From assembly GCA_964609895.1 (NCBI GenBank), contig CAZSTG010000003.1:7574-71573 (forward strand): a DNA stretch of 64,000 nt. Reading direction: 5' to 3'. The position numbers and the translations under genes were made by a program. Positions 10,877 through 55,978 of this stretch are shown here, in pieces; position 1 is the first letter of the stretch, and each line of letters begins with the position of its first letter. The notes under the pieces are model-generated. The model ran no database searches. It was not told the DNA's origin and saw only the letters and a list, made by a program, of their open reading frames with translations. The DNA comes from an uncultured Gammaproteobacteria bacterium (GTDB lineage Bacteria > Patescibacteriota > Microgenomatia > UBA10105 > UBA927).

Positions 10877-10895
10877 CCAATACGGATTATACGTC

Positions 10896-13838: not shown

Positions 13839-13839
13839 T

Positions 13840-15300: not shown

Positions 15301-15304
15301 CGCC

Positions 15305-17352: not shown

Positions 17353-17357
17353 AAAAT

Positions 17358-19540: not shown

Positions 19541-19549
19541 TTAAACTCT

Positions 19550-20632: not shown

Positions 20633-20636
20633 TACT

Positions 20637-21278: not shown

Positions 21279-21467
21279 TCTCCACAGACAGAAGGTTGAC
21301 AACTCCTCGATAACTTGGAACAATAGAAGTCTACCACGTGCGCAGCATTTCATTAATTGTTTCGTAATAACAGTGTTTGGTAGACTGTTCGTTCGCATAT
21401 AGTATATAGTTAAATAGTAGGATACTAAGTTACTGAGGACGGGTAACGAAATTTCACTACACAGTCT

Positions 21468-29495: not shown

Positions 29496-29638
29496 TACAG
29501 TGATGGAGTAGCGTGTTTGTTTGGTGAATCACTGATGCTAGAAAATTGTCATACGAGAAAAATACTATAAGCTTCATTTAGCTTCAGTTTGATCATATAC
29601 ATAGCCGTGCGTGTCGTTCTTTTGATATAATAGAGTCC

Positions 29639-30808
29639 ATGATTTCTTGGCTAAAGAGCCTCTACCATTGGGTTGTTGCAGTAGCTGCACTAGTATACTT
29701 CAGGTTTCCTGCACGCCATCTTACAGTCATAGGCGTGACCGGTACAGACGGGAAAACCACTACCTCGACGCTTATCTATGAGATTCTGAAGGCCGCCGGA
29801 TACAAAACGTCGGTTATTACCACGGTACACGCAGTTATTGCAGGGAAATCCTATGATACCGGTTTTCATGTCACAACACCAAACGCTTTCTATGTGCAAA
29901 AATACCTGCGGGAAGCGGTCGATCACGGTGATACGCATGTTGTTTTGGAGACAACTTCTCATGCGCTTGCACAGTCACGCGTGCTAGGGATTCATTTTGC
30001 AGTTGGAGTACTCACCAATGTGACGCATGAACATCTGGATTGGCACAAAACATACGACCGGTATCTGATGGCAAAAATGAAACTGTTGTTTGCGTCCGAT
30101 ACAGCGGTTATCAATAAAGATGAGGGAGAACTGTATGCGCGTATTTCCCCGCTTCTTAGACGTCATAAACTTGTAACGTACGGACTCAGACGTCAGGCAA
30201 CCATAACGCCTGAAACACATCCGTTTGAAACTGCACTCCTCGGTGATTTTAATCAATATAATTGTCTGGCAGCAATTGCCGCGACAGGTCTGGTTGGTGT
30301 GTCAAAAGATGTGATAAAAAGGACAATCAAAGGATTTACCGGAATTCCCGGAAGAATGGAAATTATTTCGGTAAAACCGTGCCGCGTAATTGTTGATTTT
30401 GCCCATACGCCAAACGCGATTGATAAGGCGCTCAAAACCGCGCGGGATATGACGAAGGGCAGGCTCATTCATGTGTTTGGGAGCGCAGGACTCAGGGATC
30501 GGACGAAGCGTCCGTATATGGGGAAATTTTCCGCCCAGTATGCAGACAGCATTGTGTTGACGGAAGAAGACTTTCGAACAGAAAATGTGGAAACTATCAT
30601 GGATGAAATTGCTTCAGGCATCCCTATATATAAAGATGTGCACCGATTTGCTCGTCGTGAAGACGCGATTAAGTTTGCGTTGTCTGATGTAAAAAAAGAT
30701 GATACCGTCATCATCACAGGCAAAGGGCATGAAAAGAGTCTCTGTCGCGGCAACACGGAATATCCGTGGAGTGATCAGGAAGCAGTGAAAAAACTTTTGA
30801 AAAAGTGA
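29639..30808 (+). CDS. murE: Mur ligase, MurE-like, lacking the N-terminal UDP-binding domain
   Basis: P-loop GVTGTDGKTTT at residue 33. TSHALAQSRV, TNVTHEHLDWH, DFAHTPNAI and C-terminal IITGKGHE match MurE. Only 20 aa precede the P-loop, and the 143-nt upstream gap cannot encode domain 1. Confidence 0.65.
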   Translation: MISWLKSLYHWVVAVAALVYFRFPARHLTVIGVTGTDGKTTTSTLIYEILKAAGYKTSVITTVHAVIAGKSYDTGFHVTTPNAFYVQKYLREAVDHGDTHVVLETTSHALAQSRVLGIHFAVGVLTNVTHEHLDWHKTYDRYLMAKMKLLFASDTAVINKDEGELYARISPLLRRHKLVTYGLRRQATITPETHPFETALLGDFNQYNCLAAIAATGLVGVSKDVIKRTIKGFTGIPGRMEIISVKPCRVIVDFAHTPNAIDKALKTARDMTKGRLIHVFGSAGLRDRTKRPYMGKFSAQYADSIVLTEEDFRTENVETIMDEIASGIPIYKDVHRFARREDAIKFALSDVKKDDTVIITGKGHEKSLCRGNTEYPWSDQEAVKKLLKK

Positions 30809-30818
30809 ACTTCTGTTT

Positions 30819-31559
30819 ATGGTACATAAGACCAATCAGGGACTGTATCAGTCCTCAATAGTGAAAAATATACCGGGAGTCATTCATGGATTCACGTCAA
30901 AAACACACGGCTCCATGTTGATTGCGGAAAATCAAAGAAAGCTGTTTCTTTCGCTCGGCATACCGCCCGAATCGGTGATTTCCGCACGTCAGGTTCACGG
31001 CAACGCCGTTCACGTTGTGCATCCACAGGATGCAGGTGGCAGATTGGAAGATGTTGACGGCATCGTGTATAAAAAAACGGACGTACGGCAACAGCACCCT
31101 TTGCTCACCGTTCATGTCGGTGACTGCGTACCGATGCTGTTTATTGATTCGGTTGCGGGTATCATCGGAGTTGCCCATGCGGGTTGGAGGGGAACAAAAG
31201 ACCATATTGCGCGCACTGTGCTTAGCGAATTCGTCAGGAACGGTTCGGATCCTTCGCATATTCAGGTGGTGTTCGGCCCGTTTATTCATGCATGCTGTTA
31301 CAAGGTTGATGAAGAGCGTGCACTGGTATTTGAACGGGAATTTCCCGGAAGCCGCGGTGTCGTAAACCGCTTGGGTGTATCATGGTTTATAGATCTAGGA
31401 ATTGCGAACATACTGGATTTGAAGCAGGGCGGCGTATTGGAAAAAAATATCGAAAATAATGAACAGTTGTGCACTTATAATAATCCGCTTGAATTTTTTT
31501 CGTTCAGAAGGACGACTGAACCGTTTGGCGAAATACTAGGGTTCATCGGATACATATAA
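30819..31559 (+). CDS. pgeF: peptidoglycan editing factor PgeF / YfiH (DUF152, Cu-oxidase_4 fold)
   Basis: Motifs VHGNAVHVV and HAGWRGT are family-diagnostic. Confidence 0.8.
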   Translation: MVHKTNQGLYQSSIVKNIPGVIHGFTSKTHGSMLIAENQRKLFLSLGIPPESVISARQVHGNAVHVVHPQDAGGRLEDVDGIVYKKTDVRQQHPLLTVHVGDCVPMLFIDSVAGIIGVAHAGWRGTKDHIARTVLSEFVRNGSDPSHIQVVFGPFIHACCYKVDEERALVFEREFPGSRGVVNRLGVSWFIDLGIANILDLKQGGVLEKNIENNEQLCTYNNPLEFFSFRRTTEPFGEILGFIGYI

Positions 31560-31560
31560 T

Positions 31561-32970
31561 ATGGAAGCAAAGGATATACAGAGAATTCACTTTGTCGGTA
31601 TTGCCGGTGTGGCGATGACAGCACTTGCCGTGTATGCAAAAGAGCGCGGTATTGCGGTGACAGGATCTGATGTGAACGGCATATTTCCGACACATGCGAT
31701 GCTTAAAAATGCGGGTATTACCGTACAGGAAGGATTTTCGTCCGGACACATTTCCAAAACAGCCAATCTGGTTGTGTTTACAGGGGCACACCAAGGGAAA
31801 GACAATGTGGAGGTACAAACCGCATGCAAACTGCAGATTCCGGTGATGTCCCATGGTGAGGCGCTTGGATTTTTTATGAAGGGGGCTGAGCAGATTTCTG
31901 TTGCAGGAAGTCACGGAAAAACGACAACAAGCGCAATGATTGCAACAATTCTTCATGTTGCAGGACGGGACCCCTCCTATGCAATCGGCTGTGGTGACAT
32001 ACGGGGCATCGGCGCATCCGGTCATTACGGAACAGGTAATATGTTTGTAGCGGAGGCGGACGAATACAGTACCGATCCGCATCATGATCCAAAACCGCGT
32101 TTTCTTTGGCAGCATCCGGATATTTTGGTTGTGACGAATATCGACTTTGATCATCCAGACGCATATGCATCACTTGCCGATGTGAAAGCGGCCTTCGTGT
32201 CGCTTGTTGCCCAACAACAGGGAAAACAAATAACGATTCTAAATGCGGATGATCCGGAGAGTGCCGCAATCACAAACGCCAAACATACGCTCCTGTACGG
32301 TTTTTCTCCCCGCGCGAACGCCCGCATTACGCATGTGGGATACGGAGAAGAACAAACATTTTTTACTCTTTCCATGGATGGAACAGATGTCGGTGAATTT
32401 GTACTGCATGTTCCGGGACGGCACAATGTGCTCAATGCTGTTGCAGCGGCAGTTGGCGCACTTTCTGCGGGCGTGTCTTGGGAGGAAATAAAAAAAGGAC
32501 TTGCGGCATTTCAGGGTACAAAGAGAAGATTTGAAAAAATTGGCGAAGCAAACGGCATGGTGGTATATGACGACTACGCACATCATCCAAAGGAAATTCA
32601 AGCATCTCTGGAGGCGGCGCGCGATTGGTTTCCTGAAAGAAAAATTATCACTGTGTTTCAGCCACATACCTATTCAAGAACCAAGGCATTGCTTGAGGAT
32701 TTTGCCAAGAGTTTTCAAAATAGCGATGTCGTGTTGTTGACAGATATTTTTGCATCAGCGAGAGAGCAGGATACGTTAGGGATAACAACGGCAACACTGG
32801 TTGAGAAGGCCGCTCAGTACCACAGGAATATCCAGTATACAAAGGGTAAGAAAGAGACGCTGACTTATTTGCAGAACATTGCGAGTTCAGGTGATGTAAT
32901 CATCATTATGGGTGCGGGAGATATTTATGAATGGGGCCCAGATATTGTACGGGCAATCAAAACAATATAA
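31561..32970 (+). CDS. murC: UDP-N-acetylmuramate--L-alanine ligase
   Basis: IHFVGIAGVAMTALA N-terminus, GSHGKTTT P-loop and DDYAHHP motif. Confidence 0.85.
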   Translation: MEAKDIQRIHFVGIAGVAMTALAVYAKERGIAVTGSDVNGIFPTHAMLKNAGITVQEGFSSGHISKTANLVVFTGAHQGKDNVEVQTACKLQIPVMSHGEALGFFMKGAEQISVAGSHGKTTTSAMIATILHVAGRDPSYAIGCGDIRGIGASGHYGTGNMFVAEADEYSTDPHHDPKPRFLWQHPDILVVTNIDFDHPDAYASLADVKAAFVSLVAQQQGKQITILNADDPESAAITNAKHTLLYGFSPRANARITHVGYGEEQTFFTLSMDGTDVGEFVLHVPGRHNVLNAVAAAVGALSAGVSWEEIKKGLAAFQGTKRRFEKIGEANGMVVYDDYAHHPKEIQASLEAARDWFPERKIITVFQPHTYSRTKALLEDFAKSFQNSDVVLLTDIFASAREQDTLGITTATLVEKAAQYHRNIQYTKGKKETLTYLQNIASSGDVIIIMGAGDIYEWGPDIVRAIKTI

Positions 32971-32973
32971 TTT

Positions 32974-33954
32974 ATGACGGACGCCTATAGACAATTCATC
33001 GAAACAATACATATGCCGGTCAAAGAACGGGAACCGCTTGCGCCGTACAGCACGTATAAAGTGGGAGGTCCTGCAGACCTGTTTGTGGAAGCCCGCGTGA
33101 AAGAAGACATCGTGCAGGCGGTAGAAACGGCAAGAAAATGCGGTGTAGCGTTTTTTATTTTAGGTGGCGGTTCAAATATTTTAATCGGTGATAAGGGATT
33201 TCGGGGAATTGTCATCAGAAATTTGACGAAGAACATAACAGTGCGCGGCATGAAGGGCGCAATAACCAAAGGTGTTGCTGACGGAAGTGTATACGTGGAA
33301 GCGGAATCAGGTGTCGCCCTGAACGCGCTTGTCAGATATACCATTGAAGAAGGGCTCGCGGGTCTCGAAATGCATCTCGGGCTCCCGGGTTCCGTGGGAG
33401 GAGCGGTGTTCATGAATTCCAAATGGATGAAACCCCCGTCGTTTATCGGTGACGCGGTATATCAGGCAACCATTCTGACGCCAGAAGGAGAAATCAAAAG
33501 CGTAACCAAAGAGTATTTCCGTTTTTCTTACGGATCTTCCGTCATCCAAAAAACAGGCGACATCGTGTTATCCGTCCTGTTTGCCCTCAAACGGGCGGAG
33601 AAAGAAGCGCTGTGGAAAACGGCAAACGAAAGCATGGAATACCGGAGAGCGTCGCAACCGCAGGGAGTAAAAACAGCAGGATGCGTGTTCAAAAACATAT
33701 CCTTGATGGAAGCGGTTACCGCAGGTACGCCGAATCATACGACTTCAACGGGTTATCTGATTGACAAATCAGGATGCAAAAACCTGACGATCGGGGGCTC
33801 AGCCGTATCGCAGGTTCATGCAAATTTTATCGTCAACACGGGCTCGGCGACTGCGAGTGATATGGTACAATTAATTGAAACAATAAAAGAAAAAGTGCAA
33901 GAGAAATTCGGTATAACACTTGTTGAAGAAATTCAGCGGATAGGAGAATTTTAA
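32974..33954 (+). CDS. murB: UDP-N-acetylenolpyruvoylglucosamine reductase
   Basis: PLAPYSTYKVGGPADLF FAD-binding N-terminus; MurB-like throughout. Confidence 0.85.
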   Translation: MTDAYRQFIETIHMPVKEREPLAPYSTYKVGGPADLFVEARVKEDIVQAVETARKCGVAFFILGGGSNILIGDKGFRGIVIRNLTKNITVRGMKGAITKGVADGSVYVEAESGVALNALVRYTIEEGLAGLEMHLGLPGSVGGAVFMNSKWMKPPSFIGDAVYQATILTPEGEIKSVTKEYFRFSYGSSVIQKTGDIVLSVLFALKRAEKEALWKTANESMEYRRASQPQGVKTAGCVFKNISLMEAVTAGTPNHTTSTGYLIDKSGCKNLTIGGSAVSQVHANFIVNTGSATASDMVQLIETIKEKVQEKFGITLVEEIQRIGEF

Positions 33955-33955
33955 T

Positions 33956-35293
33956 ATGGATAAATTTGTCGTTACGGGGCCAACTAGACTTCACGGCGAG
34001 GTGACGAGCGCGGGAGCAAAAAATGTCGCGCTGAAGGCAATTGTTGTATCGCTTCTTACCGAAGAAACGGTGATTCTCCACAATATGCCGCATATCAGGG
34101 ATGTGATGCTAATGCTCGATGTGGTCAGAAGCCTCGGTGCGGTTGCGACATTTGAAGGAAATACGGTGACCATTGAAGATGGAAAATCGCGAAGCACAAC
34201 CGTTCCTTTGGAAATTGGGGCTCGGCTTCGTACGTCATCCATGGTTTTAGGACCAATGCTTTCCCGCTATGGAAAAGCCATGATTCCAAACCCAGGGGGC
34301 TGCAGAATCGGCGCGCGGCCGATAGACCGCCATGTTGAAGGATTAAAAAACATGGGTGCAACAATTGACTATAACTCGACGGACGGATTTTTTCATGCGG
34401 AAGCTGAACACCTCCACGGTGCCGACATCACGTTTGAAAAAAACACGCATACGGGAACAGAAACACTGATTCTTGCCGCAGTACTGGCGGACGGAAAAAC
34501 AGTGCTTCATAATGCTGCGGAAGAAGTGGAGATTGATGATCTGATCGCTCTTTTAAATTCGATGGGGGCAGACATCAAGAGAACAGGACATAGGGAAATT
34601 ACCATTAACGGCGTTAAAACACTGCATGGTACCGAATACACAATCATGTCGGATCGTAATGAAGAAGTGACGTTTGCGATAGCGGCAGTTGTTTCCAAAG
34701 GGAATATTGTTGTGCATCATTCAGAACGGAAACATCTCAAAGAATTTTTAGATGTATTTGTAAAAGCCGGTGGAAAATATAAAACAGTTGACGATACAAC
34801 GACTGAATATTATTATGACGGCCCACTGAATGCAGTTGATGTGACGACTGCGCAGCACCCCGGTTTTATGACTGACTGGCAGGCGCCGTGGGCGATACTG
34901 ATGACGCAGGCAGAGGGAACATCGATGATCCATGAAACAGTATTTGAAAATAGGTTTAGTTATGTGGAGGAACTCAAAAAAATGGGTGCGAATATCGAAT
35001 ACTTTGATCCGGTGGTTAGTAATCCACAAGAATTTTATAACTTTAACTGGACGGATAAAAAAGCAGATACGCATCAGGCAATAAAAATTACAGGTCCGAC
35101 GACACTTCATAATGCGATTACTTCTATGAGTGACCTTCGTGCAGGCGCAACCGTCGTCTTGGCTGCAATCATTGCCAACGGAAAAAGTTATATCCATGGG
35201 GTTGAACAGATTGATCGTGGCTATGAACATATTGATACCAGACTGCAATCCCTTGGTGCTTCCATAGAACGCATCGGGGAAGATACAGTTTGA
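33956..35293 (+). CDS. murA: UDP-N-acetylglucosamine 1-carboxyvinyltransferase
   Basis: FVVTGPTRLHGEVTSAGAKNVAL N-terminus, and catalytic cysteine context GGCRIGARPID. Confidence 0.9.
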   Translation: MDKFVVTGPTRLHGEVTSAGAKNVALKAIVVSLLTEETVILHNMPHIRDVMLMLDVVRSLGAVATFEGNTVTIEDGKSRSTTVPLEIGARLRTSSMVLGPMLSRYGKAMIPNPGGCRIGARPIDRHVEGLKNMGATIDYNSTDGFFHAEAEHLHGADITFEKNTHTGTETLILAAVLADGKTVLHNAAEEVEIDDLIALLNSMGADIKRTGHREITINGVKTLHGTEYTIMSDRNEEVTFAIAAVVSKGNIVVHHSERKHLKEFLDVFVKAGGKYKTVDDTTTEYYYDGPLNAVDVTTAQHPGFMTDWQAPWAILMTQAEGTSMIHETVFENRFSYVEELKKMGANIEYFDPVVSNPQEFYNFNWTDKKADTHQAIKITGPTTLHNAITSMSDLRAGATVVLAAIIANGKSYIHGVEQIDRGYEHIDTRLQSLGASIERIGEDTV

Positions 35294-35307
35294 TGAAGGA
35301 GGATTGT

Positions 35308-36615
35308 ATGGCAGATGTAACCGCAGTGCTTTTGGCAGGAGGAGAATCTACACGTTTTTTCCCATATGAGGAAAAAAGCGTCTGTTCTTTTTTGGGAACA
35401 TCCTTTTTAACACGGCATTATGAACAACTGTCCCGACTTGGCATGAGGCATGTTGTTGTGGTGACCAACAGGTCAAATACCGCACTCATCAAATCCGTTG
35501 CAGTCCCAAAAACGATGCAGGTTGTGTATGTAGAACAACAGGAAAAAGGTCAGGTACAAGCAGTCATCGCATTGGAACACGTGTGTAAGGGGCCTGTGCT
35601 TCTTCTGAATGCTTCAGATTATTATGCTGATGCATGTATTCAGCCGTTTTTGAAATCGGCAACCAAAGATATTCTGCTTGGTGCGGTCAGAACGTCTGCG
35701 TATTTTCCCGGCGGGTATCTGAAGATGGACGGAAAAGGATCGGTACAGGCCATTATCGAAAAACCGAAACAGGGTACTGAACCGAGTGATGTTGTCAGAA
35801 TCCTTGTTGATTATATTCCCGATATTTCGCTTTTAGTCGCTGCAGCAAAAGAACATGGAGGTAATCCGTCAAGCGGTTATGAAGAAGCACTCACAACGCT
35901 TATTGCACACGGCAGCACCGCAACGCCGATGATTACGGACAAAGATAATTGGAAGGCGATAAAATATCCATGGCATATATTGGATCTGACGGATCAATAT
36001 TTGTCGGAACTGAAAGGTCAGCAGATAGACCCCAGTGTCGTCATAAAACCACACGTTATTATAGAAGGGAATGTTGTGATTGAATCAGGCGTCAAAATTT
36101 TTGAAGGAACGAAAATTGTAGGGCCTGCGTTTATCGGAAAAAATACGATTATCGGAAACAATAATATTATCAGATCATCCGTGATCGGCCGTGATTGCGT
36201 GACAGGATTTAATACAGACATTACCAGAAGTGCCATAGGCAACAACTGCTGGTTTCATACCAATTATGTCGGAGACAGCGTTATCGGCAATAATGTCAGT
36301 ATGGGTTCAGGAACTGTGCTTGCGAATTTGCGTCTGGATGACGGAATTATCCCAAGCACGGTCAAAGAAGAAAAAATTGATACAGGACGGAATAAACTTG
36401 GTGCAATGATCGGGGACAATGTCCGGATCGGTGTCAATGTAAGTACCATGCCGGGAATCAAAATCGGACGTGATTCTTTTATCGCCGCAGGGATTGTGGT
36501 GACACAAGACATTCCGCAAGGATCATTTGTACGGCCACTCAGTGTCGGATTTGTGATTAAACCAAATACAAAAACCGCGTCAACTTCCAGAGAAGGATTT
36601 CGGAAAGGCTTATGA
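35308..36615 (+). CDS. GlmU-like bifunctional protein (sugar-1-P nucleotidyltransferase N-domain plus left-handed beta-helix acyltransferase C-domain)
   Basis: Start at Met 7, preceded by SD AGGAGG. VLLAGGESTRF nucleotidyltransferase motif. C-terminal hexapeptide repeats (IIEGNVVIESG..., IIGNNNIIRSS..., IGNNVSMGSG...). Confidence 0.55.
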   Translation: MADVTAVLLAGGESTRFFPYEEKSVCSFLGTSFLTRHYEQLSRLGMRHVVVVTNRSNTALIKSVAVPKTMQVVYVEQQEKGQVQAVIALEHVCKGPVLLLNASDYYADACIQPFLKSATKDILLGAVRTSAYFPGGYLKMDGKGSVQAIIEKPKQGTEPSDVVRILVDYIPDISLLVAAAKEHGGNPSSGYEEALTTLIAHGSTATPMITDKDNWKAIKYPWHILDLTDQYLSELKGQQIDPSVVIKPHVIIEGNVVIESGVKIFEGTKIVGPAFIGKNTIIGNNNIIRSSVIGRDCVTGFNTDITRSAIGNNCWFHTNYVGDSVIGNNVSMGSGTVLANLRLDDGIIPSTVKEEKIDTGRNKLGAMIGDNVRIGVNVSTMPGIKIGRDSFIAAGIVVTQDIPQGSFVRPLSVGFVIKPNTKTASTSREGFRKGL

Positions 36616-37343
36616 AACGCCCCACAATTTTATTGCTTTCCGGATGGGTGCGAACAAATGTAATAAAAGAGTATTACAAAAAAACTATTCAGGAATTTGA
36701 AAAAAAGGGGTACACAGTATATGCCCCTGATATGCCCGGATTCGGAGCCGCGAAAAATCCTGACCACCCCCTGACACTGCATGATTATGCCGTATTTGTT
36801 TCTGCATATATAAAAAAACAAGCGATACAGCCAGATATACTGCTCGGTCATTCCTTTGGTGGCCGTGTGATCATCGAGTATCTTTCATTATTTCCTTTTA
36901 ACGGTAAGGCAGTGGTGCTTTCGGGAACACCGGGGTATCCATCGATTAAAAAAAGCAAAATGTTACTGTCACTTCTTATTGCCAAAATTGGCGGAACGAT
37001 TGTCTCCTTGCCACTTATTTCGAAACTGAAAGAAAGAATCCGCGGATGGTATTACTATATTGTAGGCGCACGCGATTTTTATAGGGCAGAAGGAGTTATG
37101 CGTCAAACATTTAAAAATATAGTGCAGACACCGCTAGAACAACAGATGAAAACAATACGTATCCCGACGTTACTCGTGTGGGGAGCGGACGATGTGATCG
37201 TTCCGCTCAGCGTCGCCAAGAAGATGAAGCAGACAATCTCAACCGCGACGCTTATTTCCATACCCGCATGCGGACACGGATGCATTGTTGAGACACCGGA
37301 GCATTTTGTGAAAGAAACAATGCGTTTTATACAACATCTATGA
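36612..37343 (+). CDS. alpha/beta hydrolase fold protein
   Basis: Nucleophile elbow LLGHSFGG. Length 243 aa. Confidence 0.65.
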   Translation: MKRPTILLLSGWVRTNVIKEYYKKTIQEFEKKGYTVYAPDMPGFGAAKNPDHPLTLHDYAVFVSAYIKKQAIQPDILLGHSFGGRVIIEYLSLFPFNGKAVVLSGTPGYPSIKKSKMLLSLLIAKIGGTIVSLPLISKLKERIRGWYYYIVGARDFYRAEGVMRQTFKNIVQTPLEQQMKTIRIPTLLVWGADDVIVPLSVAKKMKQTISTATLISIPACGHGCIVETPEHFVKETMRFIQHL

Positions 37344-38812
37344 CCGAAATGTTCAGTATCATCATAGCCCTGATTTGGCTGATTCGCATCGGTATAAACA
37401 TTGTCTCATATATCGCCCTGTGGTATGTCAAAGAATACAGACCAGACAGGATGATCATTCATCTAAAAAAAACAAGACAGGGGAAATGGATACTTTTTCC
37501 CAAATGGAAACTTCCGCCATTTTCAACGAAAACTTTCACATTGACGGGTGTACTTTTTCTGACTGAGCTTGCGTTATTTATTTTTCTTCCGTATCAGCTA
37601 TTTATAAAACTGCTTATCATGGATTTTGCGCTTTTTCCATTGTCGTTTCTGTTTGCCATGCTTGTCCGCATTCCCACCAAGTTGTTTCACATATATACCA
37701 TCGCAAAGGCACGCAAAGTATTAGCTGCACACACATGGAAATCAGTTATAGGCATTACCGGCAGCTATGGAAAAACTTCAACAAAAGATTTTGTGACAAC
37801 TATTTTAAGCGGCGCGTATAGCGTATTGAAAACAGAAGCAAGTAAAAATTCCAGTATCGGAATTTCTGAAACGGTGCTGTCAACATTAGTTGACACACAT
37901 CAGATGTTTGTTGTTGAAATGGGAGCGTATAACGTAGGCGAAATAAAAGAAATGACAGAGCTTGTGCGGCCGAATATCGGCATTATTACGGCAATTAATG
38001 CACAGCATCAGGATTTATTTGGTTCGATGGAAACGACGATGAAAGCAAAATATGAATTATTGCAGGGGCTTACCCGTAACAAAATTGCAATTGTGAATGA
38101 AGATATTGAAGAAACACACGCCATGGGACTATGGGCAAAACAGGAAGGAGTGCATGTTTGGTTTGTAACCAGAGACAAAAAATTGTATACAGACGCCACG
38201 TTTTGGATCGACGCCGTGGCCTCAGATACAAGTTCCGTGACGTTCATGCTGCATTATAAAAAAGAGAAGGAAAAAATTACGGTTTCAATTAGCGGAGAGC
38301 ACTTTGTCATGAATATTGCTCTTGCCGTGGCGGCAGCTGTTGCAAGCGGACTTTCCTTCCGCGAAGCATGCACCTATGCGCATCGTATTCAAAGATCAGG
38401 TAATGTGATGCGCCTGCATATTGGAATAAAAGGGGAAACACTGATTAATGACACATTCAACAACAACCCGGAAGCAGCGATTGCCGGTCTTGAGTATCTT
38501 GCAAAATTTTCCAAGAAAAAGATTCTTGTTTTTCAACCGATGATAGAGCTCGGAACATTTACTGACTCATCACATGAGCGCGTGGGTAAAGTTGCAGGAA
38601 GCGTATGTGATGAAATTATTCTTACAAACGATAATTTTTCAAAGCCTTTTATACAGGGCGTACATGAAACGAATCCGAATATCAGTGTGCATATTTTACC
38701 GGCCGAAAAAGCTGCGCAACATATCAAACAATCAATTTCAGCAGGTGACGCGGTGCTGTTTAAAGGAAAAGAAGCTGAATTTGTATGGAAACACATGGTT
38801 GGAAAGAAGTAA
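37340..38812 (+). CDS. murF: Mur ligase MurF-like with an N-terminal multi-TM region replacing the canonical N-terminal domain
   Basis: About 120 N-terminal residues form 3-4 hydrophobic helices. Then GITGSYGKTSTKDF P-loop and INDTFNNNPEAAIAGL (the MurF DDSYNANP-type motif). Confidence 0.65.
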   Translation: MTEMFSIIIALIWLIRIGINIVSYIALWYVKEYRPDRMIIHLKKTRQGKWILFPKWKLPPFSTKTFTLTGVLFLTELALFIFLPYQLFIKLLIMDFALFPLSFLFAMLVRIPTKLFHIYTIAKARKVLAAHTWKSVIGITGSYGKTSTKDFVTTILSGAYSVLKTEASKNSSIGISETVLSTLVDTHQMFVVEMGAYNVGEIKEMTELVRPNIGIITAINAQHQDLFGSMETTMKAKYELLQGLTRNKIAIVNEDIEETHAMGLWAKQEGVHVWFVTRDKKLYTDATFWIDAVASDTSSVTFMLHYKKEKEKITVSISGEHFVMNIALAVAAAVASGLSFREACTYAHRIQRSGNVMRLHIGIKGETLINDTFNNNPEAAIAGLEYLAKFSKKKILVFQPMIELGTFTDSSHERVGKVAGSVCDEIILTNDNFSKPFIQGVHETNPNISVHILPAEKAAQHIKQSISAGDAVLFKGKEAEFVWKHMVGKK

Positions 38813-38819
38813 ACGCTGT

Positions 38820-40049
38820 ATGGTATATCCAATTGGACTATCGCCAAATATTGAACGTGATGATGTTACAAGAGCATGGACAGTGTTAGTTTCTCCGTGG
38901 CGATGGTATCAGAATGACGGTTTGAAGAGTGTGTCACTTTGGTTTTCACAAAAATTCGGCACTCCGTATGTTTATTTTTTTTGTACGGGAAGAAGCGCAT
39001 TAACGACGCTTTTGCGTGCACTGCACATCGGTACAGGTGATGAAGTGCTGTTACAGGCTTTTACTTGCATGGTTGTGCCGAACGCCATCCGTTTCGTAGG
39101 TGGAGTGCCAGTGTATGTTGACGTTGACAGCTCGGGAAATTGTGACGTGAAGGATATTGAACGAAAACTTTCGCCGCGGACAAAGGCACTGATTGTCCAA
39201 CATACGTTCGGGACACCGGCAGACATGGATGCGATTCTTCGATTCGCAAAGAAAAAGAACATTACTGTTATTGAGGACTGCGCGCACGCACTCGGCGCGA
39301 CATACAAAGGGGTGCAACTCGGGTCGCTGGGTGATGCGGCGATCTTTAGTTTCGGCAGAGACAAGTGTATTTCCAGTGTATTTGGCGGTGCCGTTGTGGT
39401 GAAGGATGCGTCCGTTGCCGCGGAAATTTCCAGACTGGAAAAAAAATATGCATATCCGTCACGACGTTGGATAAGCCAGCAATTGTTGCATCCGATACTG
39501 ACATGGCTCGCACTGCCGCTGTATGCATCCGGCATCGGCAAAGGTTTGCTAGTGCTGTTTCAGAAACTGCATCTGCTTTCGTTTCCTGTGGAAGCGTGTG
39601 AGAAAAAGGGAGAGCAGCCAAAAAATTATCTCATGCGGTATCCGAACGCGCTGGCGGTATTGTTGATACATCAGCTTACAAAACTTGATCGGTACAGTGC
39701 TATGCGCAGACAAGCAGCCCATTTGTACAGACAGGCATTTGGTGGGAACAGGGACATCACTATGCTTTCAGAAAGAGATGGAAGCGGGTATCTCCGTTTT
39801 GGCATTCTGGTCAACAATCCGTCTGCAGTGCTCGGATATGCGAAACGTCACCATGTCATTCTCGGAAACTGGTACCATGCAGTCGTTGATCCAGAGGGTA
39901 GCGACATGTCGCAAGCGATGTACCATACAGGTTCATGTGGTCACGCGGAAGTGATGGCAAAACACATTGTCAATCTTCCGACACGAAAAACGCAGGCGGA
40001 AGTGCAGGAAATATCCAAACTTGTCCTTGACTCGCTTCAAAACACATGA
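38820..40049 (+). CDS. DegT/DnrJ/EryC1/StrS family PLP-dependent aminotransferase
   Basis: Start at Met 83 of ORF 38574 (first ATG after the murF stop). GTGDEVLLQAFTCMVVPNAI, VIEDCAHALGATYKG and SFGRDKCISSVFGGAVV (PLP Lys) motifs. Confidence 0.7.
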   Translation: MVYPIGLSPNIERDDVTRAWTVLVSPWRWYQNDGLKSVSLWFSQKFGTPYVYFFCTGRSALTTLLRALHIGTGDEVLLQAFTCMVVPNAIRFVGGVPVYVDVDSSGNCDVKDIERKLSPRTKALIVQHTFGTPADMDAILRFAKKKNITVIEDCAHALGATYKGVQLGSLGDAAIFSFGRDKCISSVFGGAVVVKDASVAAEISRLEKKYAYPSRRWISQQLLHPILTWLALPLYASGIGKGLLVLFQKLHLLSFPVEACEKKGEQPKNYLMRYPNALAVLLIHQLTKLDRYSAMRRQAAHLYRQAFGGNRDITMLSERDGSGYLRFGILVNNPSAVLGYAKRHHVILGNWYHAVVDPEGSDMSQAMYHTGSCGHAEVMAKHIVNLPTRKTQAEVQEISKLVLDSLQNT

Positions 40050-40696
40050 CGACACAGACAGACATCATCGTTGACAGCTATATACTCGGGCAGCTACAGG
40101 CAAACTGTTATGTGGTGTCCGACAGGAAAACGGATGACATGCTTATCATCGATCCGGCGGATATGGGTACATTTGTCGCTGAAGAGATTGAGCGGAAAAA
40201 AGGAAAACCCGTCGCCATTTTGCTGACGCATGGCCATTTTGACCACGCCATGGGGGCTGCGGAATTGCAGGCGATATACGGCATTCCCTGTTTTATGGAT
40301 ATGCGTGATCAGGCGATTATCAGCCGTATGCAGAAAACCGCTGCGCATTATTTGGGAAGAAATATTTTGGAATTCCCGCCAACATGTACGCCGCTTGATT
40401 TTTCCCGCACCGTGTACGGTTCTTTGTATGTAGAAAGCATACATACGCCGGGTCATACTCCGGGCAGCGTTTCTTTTTATCTGAAGGAGAAAGGCGTATT
40501 GTTTACGGGCGACACGATGTTTGCGGGCGGGCTGGTCGGGAGTACCAATCATACATATAGTAGGCCGCTTGATCTGAAGGATTCACTCGCACGGCTCTCC
40601 ACATATCCTGATGCGACGATACTCTATCCGGGGCATGGGGAGATGACTATTTTGGATGATGAAAAAGCAATATACGCTGCTAAGAAATCAGTATGA
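40046..40696 (+). CDS. MBL-fold metallo-hydrolase (glyoxalase II-like)
   Basis: THGHFDHAMGA metal-binding motif and downstream HTPGHTPG. 216 aa. Confidence 0.75.
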   Translation: MTTQTDIIVDSYILGQLQANCYVVSDRKTDDMLIIDPADMGTFVAEEIERKKGKPVAILLTHGHFDHAMGAAELQAIYGIPCFMDMRDQAIISRMQKTAAHYLGRNILEFPPTCTPLDFSRTVYGSLYVESIHTPGHTPGSVSFYLKEKGVLFTGDTMFAGGLVGSTNHTYSRPLDLKDSLARLSTYPDATILYPGHGEMTILDDEKAIYAAKKSV

Positions 40697-41719: not shown

Positions 41720-42085
41720 ATGACAACGTCTGGGAGAACACACAAAGATTCCTTCAGGGATGCATTTGCCGGCCTCAGGTGGACGGTTGTGACGCAGCCA
41801 AATTTTCGGATTCATCTCATTCTTTCTTTTCTGGCATTGGTGCTCGGGTTTTTCCTTCGGATAACATTCGTGGAAACGGCAATTATCGTATTCACGATCC
41901 TTTTGGGGTTAACCGCGGAGATGATCAATACCTCCATTGAGGCAATGACCGATCTTATTACGAAGGAACGTCGTGAAGATGCGCGGATTGCAAAAGATGT
42001 AGCGGCGGGCATGATGCTTCTTACTGCGATAGGTGCAATACTTGTCGCATTGTGTATTTTTGTTCCTTATTTCATCTTAATATAA
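41720..42085 (+). CDS. dgkA: diacylglycerol/undecaprenol kinase (DgkA family)
   Basis: Start at Met 53 of ORF 41564 (first ATG after the femX-like stop). 121 aa, three TM helices. EMINTSIEAMTDLI motif like DgkA NSAIEAVVD. Confidence 0.7.
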   Translation: MTTSGRTHKDSFRDAFAGLRWTVVTQPNFRIHLILSFLALVLGFFLRITFVETAIIVFTILLGLTAEMINTSIEAMTDLITKERREDARIAKDVAAGMMLLTAIGAILVALCIFVPYFILI

Positions 42086-42087
42086 TT

Positions 42088-43131
42088 ATGGTTTTTTTAC
42101 TCGGCGCATTATTATTTTCTTGGATAGTCAGCAGCAGCTTGTATATTCCGTTTATCAAACTGCTCTATAACTTTCGGATGCAACGCATGAAGCAGGTGAC
42201 GCTTGATGCATTTAATAAACGGACGCCGATATTCGACAAGTTCCATCAGATAAAAGCAGGAACTCCTGTTGGCGGTGGCGTGCTCATTATCCTTGTCACC
42301 ACCATTCTTTTTCCGCTTGCGCTCGTGCTGATGAAATATTTTTGGGTGCCGATCACTTCTGTATATCCGATGGCTGCGGAAATAAAGATATTATTGTTTA
42401 CCTTTATCTCTTTTGGATTATTAGGGCTTCTTGACGACATGAAAAAAACGTTTGTTCTGAAGTCTGATTTTTTCGGACTAAGGCTGCGCCATAAACTGAT
42501 TCTTGAAATTATCATTGCAGCGGTCATCAGCTTTTGGCTGGTTACGGATCTGCACATCAATATTTTTTATCTCCCGCTGTTTGGTGTTATTCACATGGGG
42601 TGGTGGTTTATTCCGTTTTCCATGTTTACCATAATCGCGTTTGCGAATGCATTTAATATTACGGACGGACTGGACGGATTGGCATCCGGTGTGCTGATGA
42701 TCGCACTTTTTGCTTTTTGGATTGTGAGCGCGTCCATTCTCGATACGCCGCTTTCCGTATTTCTGGCACTCTGGATTGGTAGTTTGTTGGCGTTTTTATA
42801 TTTCAACGTCTATCCGGCGCGTATTTTTTTGGGTGACGTCGGCGCACTGTCATTTGGTGCGACGTTTGCTGTGGTGGGACTGATTCTCGGTAAAGCTCCC
42901 GCACTGATCATCATCGGCTTTGTGTTTGTCATCGAAGTCGCCTCGTCGCTCATTCAGCTCCTGTCCAAAAAATTTTTCCACAAAAAAGCATTTCCCGCCG
43001 CGCCGTTTCATCTGTTTTTGCAGTATGCGGGATGGGCTGAACCAAAGATTGTCATGCGTTTCTGGATTCTTTCGATTGTCTTTGCTGTGTTCGGACTCTT
43101 CTTTGCTTTTTTGACAAAGAATCCGATATAA
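42088..43131 (+). CDS. mraY: phospho-N-acetylmuramoyl-pentapeptide transferase
   Basis: Start at Met 13, 3 nt after the dgkA stop. NAFNITDGLDGLASG and GDVGALSFG motifs. Confidence 0.9.
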   Translation: MVFLLGALLFSWIVSSSLYIPFIKLLYNFRMQRMKQVTLDAFNKRTPIFDKFHQIKAGTPVGGGVLIILVTTILFPLALVLMKYFWVPITSVYPMAAEIKILLFTFISFGLLGLLDDMKKTFVLKSDFFGLRLRHKLILEIIIAAVISFWLVTDLHINIFYLPLFGVIHMGWWFIPFSMFTIIAFANAFNITDGLDGLASGVLMIALFAFWIVSASILDTPLSVFLALWIGSLLAFLYFNVYPARIFLGDVGALSFGATFAVVGLILGKAPALIIIGFVFVIEVASSLIQLLSKKFFHKKAFPAAPFHLFLQYAGWAEPKIVMRFWILSIVFAVFGLFFAFLTKNPI

Positions 43132-43939: not shown

Positions 43940-43948
43940 AATAGGAAT

Positions 43949-45334
43949 ATGACGACATTTAAAGGGAAAACGGTCGCAATAACAGGTATTTCCATTGAGG
44001 GAAAAGATGCGCTGGATTTTTTTCTGAAGGAAGGATGCAAGATTATCTGCTGTGACAGGCGTTCCGAAGAGCAATTGGCCGAAACAATTGCTTTATATAC
44101 AGATTCGCCCGTGACATGGTGCTTCGGTTCATCGTATCTGTCCCGTCTTCACGAGGCGGATCTAATTGTTAAAACGCCGGGGATGTCACTTTTGACTCCG
44201 GAGCTGGTACAGGCAAAAAATCGCGGTATTGAAATCACGAGTGTGACCAAATTGTTTTTTGAACTGTGTACCGCCCCCATTATCGGTGTGACCGGAACCA
44301 AAGGAAAGGGAACGACAAGCTCCTTGATACGGGATATGCTGGAAACAGCAGGAAAGACGGTATTCCTAGGGGGTAATGTAGGAATTGCCTTGTTATCGCG
44401 CGTCAGATCCATACGTCAGACAGACTGGGTGGTATATGAACTGTCCTCATTTCAGCTAGAAGATATGAATTTGAGTCCCCACATCGCGGTTGTACTTCGG
44501 ATTACGCAGGATCATTTGGCAAATTTTGACGCAAACGCGACCAATTTTCATGCAACACGGGAACTGTATGTGGAGGCAAAATCGCAGATTGTGCGTCACC
44601 AGACGGCAGACGATATCGCCGTCATCAATGGAGGGGACATGACAGCGCGGGCATTTGCAGAATTGACGCCCGCAAAAAAGCTGTATTTTGACCGTTACGG
44701 GACGACCGCTGATTGTTATGTAGAATCGCATACCGTACACCTAGTTGAACAGGACGCTGTAACGGAAATTGCAGACGCATCAACAGTACAAGTTCGTGGA
44801 GATCATAATCTGGAAAACATCGCCGCGGCAACGCTTGCGTGCCGTGCCGCAGGTGTCTCTGTTTCGGCAATACAACAGGCTGTCCGTGCATTTAAGGGAT
44901 TGGAACACCGGCTGGAATTTGTCCGGACTGTGCATGAAGTTTCCTATTATAATGATTCGTTTTCAACCGTTCCGGAAACAACCATTGCCGCAGTCGAAGC
45001 ATTTGAAGAACCGAAGGTGTTGATTCTGGGAGGATCGGAGAAAAAATCAGATTTTACCGTCATGGGCGAATACATTGCAAAAAGCAACGTCAGGGGTGTT
45101 GTCGTTATCGGTGACATGACGACACGCATCGAAGAAGCGTTAAGAGCTGCTCATTTTAAGGGAAAAATTGTCACAGGATGCACTAACATGCAGGAAATCG
45201 TTATACAGGCAACCAAGTTGTCAAAGCCGGGAAGTGTGGTGGTATTGACCCCCGGTTGTGCGTCGTTTGGAATGTTTGTTAATTATAAAGATCGCGGAAA
45301 GCAGTTTAAACATGAAGTTCTTGCATTGGCATAA
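43949..45334 (+). CDS. murD: UDP-N-acetylmuramoylalanine--D-glutamate ligase
   Basis: KTVAITGISIEGKDA N-terminus; GVTGTKGKGTTSSL P-loop. Confidence 0.85.
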   Translation: MTTFKGKTVAITGISIEGKDALDFFLKEGCKIICCDRRSEEQLAETIALYTDSPVTWCFGSSYLSRLHEADLIVKTPGMSLLTPELVQAKNRGIEITSVTKLFFELCTAPIIGVTGTKGKGTTSSLIRDMLETAGKTVFLGGNVGIALLSRVRSIRQTDWVVYELSSFQLEDMNLSPHIAVVLRITQDHLANFDANATNFHATRELYVEAKSQIVRHQTADDIAVINGGDMTARAFAELTPAKKLYFDRYGTTADCYVESHTVHLVEQDAVTEIADASTVQVRGDHNLENIAAATLACRAAGVSVSAIQQAVRAFKGLEHRLEFVRTVHEVSYYNDSFSTVPETTIAAVEAFEEPKVLILGGSEKKSDFTVMGEYIAKSNVRGVVVIGDMTTRIEEALRAAHFKGKIVTGCTNMQEIVIQATKLSKPGSVVVLTPGCASFGMFVNYKDRGKQFKHEVLALA

Positions 45335-52768: not shown

Positions 52769-52846
52769 ATTGAATTGTGAATGGTTTGCAGTAATAATCT
52801 ATCGGGATATAATAGCGGTAGTGGGACATATATTTAAGATATTGGC

Positions 52847-55976: not shown

Positions 55977-55978
55977 AT

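What the first reader, a model, noticed from the sequence alone, without database searches (positions are those of the whole stretch)
29639..38812. Two atypical Mur ligases: MurE without domain 1, and MurF whose domain 1 is replaced by a 3-4 helix membrane anchor
The MurE-like ORF (389 aa) begins only 20 residues before its P-loop. The upstream 143-nt gap cannot encode the UDP-binding domain. The MurF-like ORF has about 120 N-terminal residues of hydrophobic helices before GITGSYGKTSTK. A membrane-tethered MurF would place the last cytoplasmic step at the membrane next to MraY. Loss of domain 1 in MurE raises the question of how the UDP moiety is bound, or whether these enzymes act on a different acceptor.
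Basis: seen in the sequence. Interest (0 to 1): 0.5.

Follow-up and report, generated by a model that had tools for sequence, protein, structure and literature searches.

The report
Membrane-embedded MurF and domain-1-less MurE
In a lineage of ultra-small uncultured bacteria (Gottesmanbacteria and Levybacteria), two textbook soluble cell-wall enzymes are rebuilt: MurE has lost its uridine-binding domain, and MurF has swapped it for a conserved three-helix membrane domain, which puts the end of the "cytoplasmic" peptidoglycan pathway in the membrane.

Summary
The window is a Patescibacteria (Candidatus Gottesmanbacteria) dcw cell-wall cluster.

- **MurE-like gene (29639-30808):** it passes the NCBIfam murE threshold but matches only model positions 71-471. 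The 143-nt gap upstream has stops in all three frames.
- **MurF-like gene (37340-38812):** its best matches by sequence and fold are MurF, from residue about 120 onward. Residues 1-110 form three transmembrane helices. A cytoplasmic loop carries an invariant motif, LWxVKEYRxDRMxIHL..QGK, followed by invariant P112 and H117.
- **Conservation:** both architectures and the gene order recur in all 36 related genome loci where both genes are complete, and in the Levybacteria relative examined. The membrane domain occurs in 296 protein clusters, with a five-helix variant, always ahead of a Mur ligase body. It matches no Pfam family or solved structure.
- **Contrast:** MurC and MurD in the same cluster keep their N-terminal domains.

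I found no description of this in the searched literature.

Best reading: these are the true MurE and MurF of this clade, with MurF working at the inner face of the membrane beside MraY. An unexcluded bolder reading is that they act on lipid-linked precursors, as MurT does. This is a new variant of a known enzyme kind. Interest 0.6.

The parts
29496..29638 (.). 143-nt gap between ftsI and the MurE-like gene. It is too short for a domain 1 of about 90 residues and is closed by stop codons.
   Evidence: Stops in all three forward frames. The in-frame ORF extends only about 20 codons upstream of the ATG. No promoter-like, terminator-like or Rfam match.
29639..30808 (+). MurE-like ligase, 389 aa: central (ATPase) and C-terminal Mur ligase domains only. 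The uridine-binding domain 1 is absent.
   Evidence: TIGR01085 383.6 bits, model positions 71-471 of 472. Pfam M and C domains only. Aligns to 4bub residues 89-480. AlphaFold2 pLDDT 89, pTM 0.90. Foldseek against MurE 1e8c and 4c12: TM-score 0.87 normalised to the query, 0.69 normalised to the target.
29639..29704 (+). N-terminal helix of the MurE-like protein (residues 1-22, MISWLKSLYHWVVAVAALVYFR), with invariant K6 and H10. It corresponds to the helix that links domain 1 to domain 2 in canonical MurE.
   Evidence: Model helix 2-21. K6 and H10 invariant, M1 and Y9 nearly invariant in 89 sequences. Not a transmembrane segment: mean KD19 maximum 1.27, summed insertion energy +6.1 kcal/mol.
29732..29758 (+). 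MurE-like P-loop G32-T40 (GVTGTDGKT).
   Evidence: Read from the sequence. Invariant in alignment A2.
30566..30577 (+). E310-D311-F312-R313, at the position of the DNPR meso-diaminopimelate-recognition motif of E. coli MurE. T. maritima has DDPR here.
   Evidence: Residue-by-residue alignments. E309 E310 D311 R313 invariant. Role of DNPR from PMC3829189.
37340..38812 (+). MurF-like ligase, 490 aa: an N-terminal polytopic membrane domain followed by the central and C-terminal Mur ligase domains.
37349..37426 (+). Transmembrane helix 1 (residues about 4-29), with nearly invariant W13, R16 and N20.
   Evidence: KD 2.33. Model helix 2-30. Conservation.
37418..37486 (+). Conserved cytoplasmic motif, residues 27-49: LWYVKEYRPDRMIIHLKKTRQGK. 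Invariant L27 W28 K31 E32 Y33 R34 D36 R37 M38 H41 Q47 G48.
   Evidence: Alignments A1 and A3. The core W..KEYR.D is also invariant in the five-helix subgroup. The loop carries 7.5 Lys+Arg on average, so it is cytoplasmic by the positive-inside rule. pLDDT 86-90.
37529..37591 (+). Transmembrane helix 2 (residues about 64-84).
   Evidence: Summed insertion energy -1.1 kcal/mol on average across the family. Model helix 63-82. Coevolution couplings K64-V109 and L72-S102 indicate antiparallel packing with helix 3.
37604..37666 (+). Transmembrane helix 3 (residues about 89-109), with nearly invariant D95 and P100.
   Evidence: KD 2.33. Part of model helix 87-130. Conservation.
37667..37741 (+). Juxtamembrane linker helix (residues 110-134), with invariant P112 and H117. 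Its distal part aligns with the helix that precedes the P-loop strand in canonical MurF.
   Evidence: Invariants. Residues 118-253 align to T. maritima MurF 3zl8 residues 66-200.
37751..37780 (+). MurF-like P-loop G138-S147 (GITGSYGKTS).
   Evidence: Read from the sequence. G141 S142 G144 K145 T146 invariant.
36612..37343 (+). Alpha/beta-fold serine hydrolase whose stop overlaps the MurF-like start (ATGA). It sits directly upstream of the MurF-like gene in every related locus that includes that flank, except L054.
   Evidence: Pfam Abhydrolase_1 and Abhydrolase_6. Synteny in 51 loci plus L052 and L053.
38820..40049 (+). DegT/DnrJ/EryC1-like PLP enzyme, 8 nt downstream of the MurF-like stop. 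It is a constant neighbour, even in the most distant locus.
   Evidence: Pfam PF01041, 6.8e-54. Only the N-terminal half matches NCBIfam sugar aminotransferases. Synteny. Gene start.
31561..32970 (+). MurC with its N-terminal domain intact (internal control).
   Evidence: PF01225 at residues 8-108. TIGR01082 417 bits, aligning to model positions 1-447 of 449.
43949..45334 (+). MurD with its N-terminal domain intact (internal control).
   Evidence: PF21799 MurD-like_N at residues 7-97. TIGR01087 357.7 bits.
42052..43131 (+). MraY, the membrane enzyme that takes the MurF product.
   Evidence: PF00953. TIGR00445 169.6 bits, below the cutoff of 192.

Best explanation
These are the true MurE (third-residue ligase) and MurF (D-Ala-D-Ala ligase) of a Gottesmanbacteria/Levybacteria clade of Patescibacteria. 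Their N-terminal region has been remodelled.

- MurE has lost the uridine-nucleoside-binding domain 1. It keeps only the linker helix.
- MurF has replaced domain 1 with a three-helix integral membrane domain. The N-terminus is outside the cell and the catalytic body is inside.
- The conserved cytoplasmic loop (KEYRxDR...H...QGK) and the juxtamembrane residues P112 and H117 sit where domain 1 would normally meet the nucleotide-diphosphate end of the substrate.

Proposed mechanism: MurF works at the inner face of the membrane. Its membrane domain positions the diphosphate end of the precursor, or docks onto MraY, or both. UDP-MurNAc-pentapeptide is thus made where MraY uses it. MurE binds its substrate mainly through domain 2.

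Shown: gene integrity, domain content, conservation, predicted topology, synteny.

Inferred: catalytic identities, the role of the loop, and hand-off to MraY.
For: - **MurE identity:** above the curated murE threshold, and placed directly after ftsI as in canonical dcw clusters. Catalytic columns are invariant. The fold matches MurE.
- **MurF identity:** MurF is the best sequence and structure match. The MurF-type MxELG segment of domain 3 is retained: FQPMIELG against GDMGELG and GDMAELG. F398 Q399 P400 M401 E403 L404 are invariant.
- **Complete pathway context:** the cluster holds mraZ, rsmH, ftsL, ftsI, pgeF, murC, murB, murA, glmU-like, femAB, mraY, murI, murD, ftsW, murG, ftsQ, ftsA and ftsZ. 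There is no other Mur ligase in the 64 kb.
- **Conservation across species:** the same architecture and gene order recur across the 51 related species-representative loci. All 36 MurE ORFs whose P-loop region is present start at the short conserved N-terminus. The Levybacteria relative L052 and the GC-rich relative L053 show the same.
- **Membrane domain:** three hydrophobic segments in 127 of 132 short-form proteins and five in 119 of 160 long-form proteins. An odd number keeps the catalytic domain cytoplasmic. Lys+Arg distribution: 0 in the N-terminal tail, 7.5 in loop 1, 0 in the turn, 4.8 after helix 3. AlphaFold2 pTM 0.90.
- **Functional constraint on the N-domain:** invariant charged residues.
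Against: - The MurF-like protein scores below the curated TIGR01143 cutoff (223.9 against 288.6 bits).
- No enzyme of this type has been assayed.
- I could not scan a whole genome of this clade, so a canonical MurE or MurF elsewhere is not excluded.
- No ddl gene lies in the window.
- Every Mur-ligase-superfamily enzyme I know of that uses UDP-MurNAc substrates keeps an N-terminal domain (my knowledge), so efficient use of UDP substrates without it is unproven.
- Coevolution analysis gave no strong couplings between the membrane domain and the catalytic body.
- I could not inspect model coordinates.
Confidence: 0.55

Rival explanations
1. Lipid-linked elongation. Both enzymes have lost the uridine-binding domain while MurC and MurD keep theirs. 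This reading explains that by a change of carrier after MurD. MraY would transfer phospho-MurNAc-L-Ala-D-Glu (or the tripeptide) to undecaprenyl phosphate. MurE and the membrane-embedded MurF would then finish the stem peptide on the lipid-linked precursor at the membrane surface. The KEYRxDR loop and H117 would hold the lipid pyrophosphate.
For: - Domain 1 loss is selective: MurE and MurF lack it, MurC and MurD keep it.
- MurT, the one known Mur-type ligase that acts on lipid II and lipid I and not on UDP precursors, also lacks the UDP-binding domain. [quoted passage not shown]
- The other domain-1-less superfamily members use non-UDP acceptors: FolC, CphA and CfbE, which appear among the sequence or fold matches, and PgsB/CapB (my knowledge).
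- MurF is integral to the membrane. It has nearly invariant intramembrane R16, N20 and D95, and invariant basic residues at the interface.
Against: - The MurE-like protein has no membrane segment.
- Its best matches are ordinary UDP-substrate MurE enzymes at 27-35% identity.
- In canonical MurE most ligand contacts come from domain 2, so loss of domain 1 need not change the substrate.
- Nothing here tests MraY specificity.
- No precedent for stem-peptide elongation on lipid I is known to me.
Confidence: 0.17
2. Passive minimisation. Domain 1 is simply dispensable in these reduced genomes. The MurF N-terminus is only a tether with no role in substrate handling or partner binding.
For: Patescibacteria proteins and genomes are generally reduced (my knowledge). 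A tether alone would still raise the local concentration of product near MraY.
Against: A passive anchor does not need 17 invariant columns, including a charged cytoplasmic motif, across sequences that share only 36-64% identity in that region. The motif is kept even when two extra helices are inserted. The N-domain is as conserved as the catalytic body. The MurE N-terminal helix also has invariant K6 and H10.
Confidence: 0.12
3. Paralogs with another job. Canonical MurE and MurF exist elsewhere in these genomes. These two ligases would modify a different acceptor, for example another envelope polymer, together with the neighbouring hydrolase, DegT-like and FemAB-like genes.
For: The MurF-like protein is below the murF cutoff. 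It is always flanked by an alpha/beta hydrolase and a DegT-like PLP enzyme, which is unusual for murF. I could not scan whole genomes.
Against: MurE-like sits in the canonical murE slot after ftsI and passes the murE threshold. No second MurE or MurF appears in the 64-kb window or within 10 kb in about 50 related loci. NCBI and JGI pipelines name these proteins MurE and MurF in the named genomes. Genomes of about 1 Mb rarely carry redundant Mur ligases (my knowledge).
Confidence: 0.1
4. Artefact: a frameshift, a wrong start codon or a misassembly hides the missing N-terminal domains.
For: None found. A few related loci have longer upstream ORFs.
Against: Stops in all frames upstream. The conserved Met and N-terminal residues recur in 89 to 120 independent homologs from many assemblies. 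The longer ORFs are non-conserved upstream read-throughs that contain the conserved start inside them. The MurF N-terminus is under clear protein-level constraint.
Confidence: 0.01

Closest known systems
Canonical MurE (UDP-MurNAc-L-Ala-D-Glu:diamino acid ligase; e.g. T. maritima 4BUB, E. coli 1E8C, S. aureus 4C12)
   Same: Central ATPase and C-terminal domains, P-loop, invariant catalytic columns and dcw position after ftsI. 27-35% identity over 400-409 aligned columns. TM-score 0.85-0.87 normalised to the query.
   Different: Lacks the first 88 or so residues, which form domain 1, the uridine nucleoside site. The DNPR motif is E-D-[F/Y]-R, closest to the DDPR of Lys-adding T. maritima MurE.
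Canonical MurF (UDP-MurNAc-tripeptide:D-Ala-D-Ala ligase; e.g. T. maritima 3ZL8, A. baumannii 4QF5, P. aeruginosa 4CVK)
   Different: Domain 1 is replaced by a membrane domain of about 110 residues and three helices (five in a sister subgroup) with an invariant cytoplasmic motif. It scores below the curated murF threshold. It is separated from murE by seven genes and flanked by hydrolase and DegT-like genes.
MurT of the MurT/GatD lipid II isoglutaminyl synthase
   Same: A Mur-ligase-fold enzyme without the UDP-binding N-terminal domain that works at the membrane on lipid-linked peptidoglycan precursors (PMC6085368). This is a functional analogy for the bolder reading.
   Different: Not homologous at family level: MurT models score 19.5-40.8 bits against cutoffs of 800. 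No GatD partner or DUF1727-type C-terminal domain was seen. MurT is not an integral membrane protein (my knowledge).
PgsB/CapB poly-gamma-glutamate synthetase subunit
   Same: A Mur-ligase-superfamily amide ligase with an N-terminal membrane anchor and no UDP-binding domain (my knowledge).
   Different: It has a single anchor helix and a different substrate, and is not part of a dcw cluster. No PgsB/CapB model appeared among the NCBIfam hits.
Membrane-proximal Mur enzyme assemblies (MurG- or MreB-scaffolded Mur ligases; fused MurE-MurF of Bordetella)
   Same: The same idea that late cytoplasmic steps are organised next to MraY and MurG (PMC6420597 abstract; PMC10214165).
   Different: There the localisation comes from protein-protein contacts or gene fusion of soluble three-domain enzymes. 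Here it is built in through an integral membrane domain, and domain 1 is gone.

Membership tests
MurE (TIGR01085 / UDP-N-acetylmuramyl-tripeptide synthetase) | Whole-protein score above the curated family threshold | tested here: met
   383.6 bits against a cutoff of 257.3.
MurE | Three-domain architecture including N-terminal domain 1 (uridine site) | tested here: not met
   Model positions 1-70 are unmatched. No PF01225. 4bub residues 1-88 have no counterpart. The upstream gap is closed by stops.
MurE | Central-domain P-loop and conserved catalytic residues; C-terminal domain | tested here: met
   GVTGTDGKTT. Invariant columns E104 T106 S107 H108, N127, E131 H132, K146, R286 D287 and others. 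Pfam M and C domains.
MurE | DNPR motif (meso-DAP-type enzymes) | tested here: not met
   E310-D311-F312-R313, compared with T. maritima DDPR. This argues against meso-DAP specificity, not against MurE membership.
MurE | Location in the dcw cluster next to ftsI | tested here: met
   143 nt downstream of ftsI. The same holds in the related loci.
MurE | Ligase activity on UDP-MurNAc-L-Ala-D-Glu | not testable with these tools
   Needs biochemistry.
MurF (TIGR01143) | Whole-protein score above the curated family threshold | tested here: not met
   223.9 bits against a cutoff of 288.6. It is still the top model by a wide margin; murD scores 75.5.
MurF | N-terminal domain 1 of the MurE/MurF type | tested here: not met
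   Residues 1-123 match no Mur model. They are three hydrophobic helices plus a loop, with no Pfam hit even at E<=10.
MurF | Central and C-terminal domains with closest fold neighbours among MurF structures | tested here: met
MurF | MurF-type GDMxELG segment in domain 3 | tested here: inconclusive
   FQPMIELG aligns with GDMGELG and GDMAELG. M, E, L and G are kept, G and D are not. That this segment is diagnostic of MurF is my recollection.
MurF | D-Ala-D-Ala-adding activity; presence of Ddl in the genome | not testable with these tools
   No ddl in the window.
MurT (lipid II isoglutaminyl synthase) | Family-level sequence match and GatD partner | tested here: not met
   MurT models score 40.8 and 19.5 bits against cutoffs of 800. 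No glutaminase gene was seen in the cluster.
New N-terminal membrane domain ('KEYR' domain) of Patescibacteria MurF | Helix 1, then the LWxxKEYRxDR loop, then two or four further helices, directly ahead of a Mur ligase central domain | tested here: met
   296 clusters at E<=1e-3, all N-terminal in proteins of about 480-600 aa or in fragments. Invariant motif in both subgroups. 1384 proteins at E<=1e-10 for the long form.

The most novel reading that the evidence does not exclude
In Gottesmanbacteria and Levybacteria the lipid II pathway is rewired. MraY acts after MurD. The domain-1-less MurE and the membrane-integral MurF then add the third residue and D-Ala-D-Ala to an undecaprenyl-pyrophosphate-linked MurNAc-peptide at the membrane. 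The conserved KEYRxDR/H117 site would bind the lipid pyrophosphate in place of a uridine pocket.
Probability: 0.15. Interest if true: 0.9.

Novelty: new variant of a known kind. Interest (0 to 1): 0.6.

Why it matters
MurC to MurF are textbook soluble, three-domain, UDP-substrate enzymes and antibiotic targets.

- A whole bacterial lineage in which MurF is an integral membrane protein, and MurE works without its uridine site, shows that domain 1 is not obligatory.
- It gives a natural, built-in example of the long-proposed coupling of the last cytoplasmic steps to MraY.
- It provides a previously unannotated membrane domain with a sharply defined motif to test.
- If the substrate proves to be lipid-linked, the order of steps in peptidoglycan precursor synthesis would not be universal.
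- Annotation pipelines label these proteins as ordinary MurE and MurF and hide the difference.

Tried and rejected
- **Frameshift or wrong start:** rejected by six-frame translation and by conservation of the N-termini.
- **MurE N-terminal helix as a membrane anchor:** rejected. KD maximum averages 1.27, insertion energy +6.1 kcal/mol, and the amphipathicity is borderline.
- **AlphaFold database fold search:** library unavailable.
- **Walking along the source contig to look for ddl or extra Mur ligases:** exact-product look-ups for two window-end genes failed. P0001 returned only a 7.5-kb Logan contig.
- **Coevolution (mean-field DCA, 292 sequences, effective number 252):** recovers helix 2/helix 3 antiparallel and helix 1/helix 2 contacts. 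There are no convincing couplings between the membrane domain and the catalytic body, so it says nothing on how the loop meets the active site.
- **Promoter, terminator and Rfam scans of the murE upstream gap and the window:** nothing.
- **Literature:** six searches found no description of a truncated MurE or a membrane MurF in CPR/Patescibacteria. Follow-up reads of three papers also found nothing.
- **Hydrolase-MurF fusion (P0459):** a single short contig with the hydrolase C-terminus missing, so not relied on.

Full report
**What the window is**

Nearly all genes lie on the + strand. Bases 26.2-50.7 kb hold a complete division and cell wall (dcw) cluster in this order:

- mraZ, rsmH, an ftsL-like gene, ftsI
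- the MurE-like gene
- pgeF, murC, murB, murA
- an archaeal-type glmU-like gene, an alpha/beta hydrolase
- the MurF-like gene
- a DegT-like PLP enzyme, an MBL-fold hydrolase, a FemAB-family gene, a DAGK-family kinase
- mraY, murI, murD, ftsW, murG, ftsQ, ftsA, ftsZ

The closest homologs that carry source names come from Candidatus Gottesmanbacteria or 'Patescibacteria group' metagenome-assembled genomes.

**Checking the observation: MurE-like**

- The 389-residue ORF has only the Mur ligase central and C-terminal Pfam domains.
- It scores 383.6 bits on NCBIfam murE (cutoff 257.3). The alignment runs from residue 14 to model position 71, so about 70 model positions at the N-terminus have no counterpart.
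- Against solved structures it aligns to residues 89-480 of T. maritima MurE.
- The AlphaFold2 model (pLDDT 89, pTM 0.90) superposes on MurE structures with TM-score 0.85-0.87 relative to the query. Relative to the longer targets the score is 0.69.
- ftsI ends intact at 29495. The 143-nt gap has stops in every forward frame, and the murE frame is open for only about 20 codons upstream of the ATG.
- The protein therefore starts with one helix (residues 2-21), which corresponds to the helix joining domains 1 and 2 in canonical MurE. The P-loop follows at residue 32.
- That helix is hydrophobic but is not a transmembrane segment. K6 and H10 in it are invariant in 89 homologs.

**Checking the observation: MurF-like**

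- Its best family model is murF: 223.9 bits, below the cutoff of 288.6. The next best, murD, scores 75.5.
- Residues 1-110 contain three hydrophobic stretches. The model predicts helices 2-30, 63-82 and 87-130 with high confidence (pLDDT 94.9, pTM 0.90).
- The Lys+Arg distribution is 0 in the N-terminal tail, 7.5 in the first loop, 0 in the turn between helices 2 and 3, and 4.8 after helix 3. This gives a topology with the N-terminus outside and the catalytic body inside.

**The MurF N-terminus is a domain, not just an anchor**

- In 95 full-length homologs that share 45-81% identity with the window protein, L27, W28, K31, E32, R34, D36, R37, P112 and H117 are invariant. So are the P-loop and the catalytic residues.
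- In the N-terminal sub-alignment, Y33, M38, H41, Q47 and G48 are also invariant. Mean column identity is 55%, against 59% for the whole protein.
- W13, R16 and N20 in helix 1, and D95 and P100 in helix 3, are nearly invariant.
- A profile of this domain searched against 1.84 billion representative proteins finds 296 clusters. In every case the match lies at the N-terminus of a protein of about 480-600 residues, or in a fragment.
- A sister subgroup has two extra helices inserted after the loop, which moves the P-loop to residue about 177-213. It keeps the invariant W..(K)EYR.D core.
- The number of hydrophobic segments is 3 in 127 of 132 short forms and 5 in 119 of 160 long forms. An odd count preserves the cytoplasmic location of the catalytic body.
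- A coevolution analysis supports a compact bundle: helices 2 and 3 pack antiparallel, and helix 1 packs against helix 2 and the loop. It gives no reliable contacts to the catalytic body.

**Distribution and synteny**

- A scan of one genome per GTDB species with the pattern KEYRxDRMxI returned 51 loci. Those with meaningful titles are Gottesmanbacteria or Patescibacteria, and one is labelled Woesebacteria.
- Nearly all of these loci have the same gene order as the window.
- All 36 MurE ORFs with a detectable P-loop start at the conserved Met about 31 residues before it. Three longer ORFs are non-conserved upstream read-throughs.
- The long-form MurF belongs to Levybacteria and further Gottesmanbacteria.
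- A Levybacteria locus and a GC-rich relative again show a MurE that begins with the central domain directly after the PBP gene. They also show a MurC and, in the GC-rich locus L053, a MurD that keep their N-terminal domains.
- So the two traits co-occur throughout the clade I could sample. Their distribution in other Patescibacteria classes was not tested.

**How it most likely works**

What is established from the literature:
- In MurE, domain 1 holds the uridine nucleoside site. The rest of UDP-MurNAc-tripeptide is bound mainly by domain 2 (PMC3829189).

What I infer:
- Helix 3 of the MurF-like protein runs straight into the helix that precedes the P-loop strand. The membrane and the conserved cytoplasmic loop therefore occupy the side of the central domain where domain 1 normally sits. 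That is where the nucleotide-diphosphate end of the acceptor points.
- My best reading (confidence 0.55) is that these are the clade's true MurE and MurF. MurF would act at the inner membrane face. Its N-domain would position the diphosphate end of the precursor or dock to MraY, so that the pentapeptide precursor is made where it is consumed. MurE would manage with domain 2 contacts.
- At the DNPR position MurE has E-D-[F/Y]-R, most like the DDPR of the Lys-adding T. maritima enzyme. A FemAB-family gene lies in the cluster. Together these suggest a non-DAP (Lys-type), bridged peptidoglycan. This is inference only.

**Rival readings**

- **Lipid-linked acceptor (0.17).** Only the two late ligases lost domain 1. 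The one Mur-type enzyme known to act on lipid II and lipid I, MurT, also lacks it. The same holds for other superfamily members with non-UDP acceptors. Against this: MurE has no membrane segment, and nothing here tests MraY.
- **Passive tether (0.12).** This is hard to square with the invariant charged motif.
- **Paralogs with another function (0.10).** I could not exclude this because no whole genome was accessible. The gene positions and the absence of any other Mur ligase in the window and in about 50 loci of ±10 kb argue against it.
- **Artefact (0.01).** Refuted by the conservation data.

**Comparison with what is known**

- The catalytic parts belong to MurE and MurF. Both proteins fail the three-domain criterion, and the MurF-like protein also falls below its curated score threshold. 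I therefore file them as variant MurE and MurF rather than ordinary members.
- Membrane anchoring within the superfamily is known to me only for PgsB/CapB (my knowledge). Work on lipid-linked peptidoglycan precursors is known only for MurT.
- Membrane-proximal organisation of soluble Mur ligases through MurG or MreB, and MurE-MurF fusions, have been described (PMC6420597 and PMC10214165).
- Six literature searches and reads of the most relevant papers found no mention of a truncated MurE or a membrane MurF in CPR bacteria. The library is limited to open-access papers and bioRxiv.

**Verdict**

This is a new variant of a known kind. Interest is 0.6. The boldest unexcluded reading, stem-peptide completion on a lipid carrier, has a probability of about 0.15 and would be of high interest.

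Noticed in passing
window 36612-41703; loci L001-L053: A conserved block surrounds the membrane MurF: alpha/beta serine hydrolase, TM-MurF, DegT-like PLP enzyme, MBL-fold hydrolase, FemAB-family gene. The genes are tightly packed: the hydrolase stop overlaps the MurF start, and the DegT-like gene starts 8 nt after the MurF stop. The MurF-DegT pair persists even in the most distant locus, L054. Only the N-terminal half of the DegT-like protein matches sugar aminotransferase models. The role of these neighbours in the precursor pathway is unknown.
   Followed up: partly
protein P0459 (JGI contig of 3.4 kb): One 738-aa ORF fuses the alpha/beta hydrolase, minus its C-terminal 35 or so residues, directly to helix 1 of a long-form TM-MurF. 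It could be a real fusion or an assembly or deletion artefact. There is only one instance.
   Followed up: partly
window 30566-30577 and 40693-41703: MurE has E-D-F-R where meso-DAP enzymes have D-N-P-R. The family consensus is E-D-[Y/F]-R. A FemAB-family transferase lies in the cluster, with its weak best match to FemX. Together these hint at a Lys-type or other non-DAP peptidoglycan with an interpeptide bridge.
   Followed up: partly
loci L004, L007, L008, L015, L016, L018, L020 and others: In about half of the related species, mraY is followed directly by ftsW. The murI-murD pair present in this window (43148-45334) is missing from the cluster. Whether murD lies elsewhere or is absent in those genomes was not testable.
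   Followed up: partly
window 50918-56000: Directly after ftsZ lies a tyrosine recombinase (phage integrase family, 50918-51940). It is followed by ORFs with no Pfam match (51933-52493, 52847-54163, 54539-55060) in a stretch of 33-35% G+C, against about 45% elsewhere. This looks like an integrated mobile element or island.
   Followed up: no
window 35290-36615: The GlmU-like gene in the cluster is of the archaeal bifunctional sugar-1-phosphate nucleotidylyltransferase/acetyltransferase type (TIGR03992, 226 bits) rather than bacterial GlmU (92 bits).
   Followed up: no
window 10851-23441: Upstream of the dcw cluster is a glycan-assembly region. It holds a 995-aa ORF with no Pfam match (10851-13838), a PMT_2-type membrane glycosyltransferase, four GT1/GT2/GT4 glycosyltransferases, a sugar nucleotidyltransferase and a DUF4012 protein.
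   Followed up: no
loci L001, L002, L005-L009 and others (record titles): Many related genomes are titled 'uncultured Gammaproteobacteria bacterium'. Their dcw clusters are clearly of the Gottesmanbacteria/Patescibacteria type, so these titles appear to be placeholder or wrong taxonomic labels.
   Followed up: no
window 1-64000: GC skew is positive in every 2-kb bin, and almost all long ORFs are on the + strand. This is consistent with a single replichore with strong co-orientation of genes. No tRNA genes or Rfam matches occur in 64 kb.
   Followed up: no
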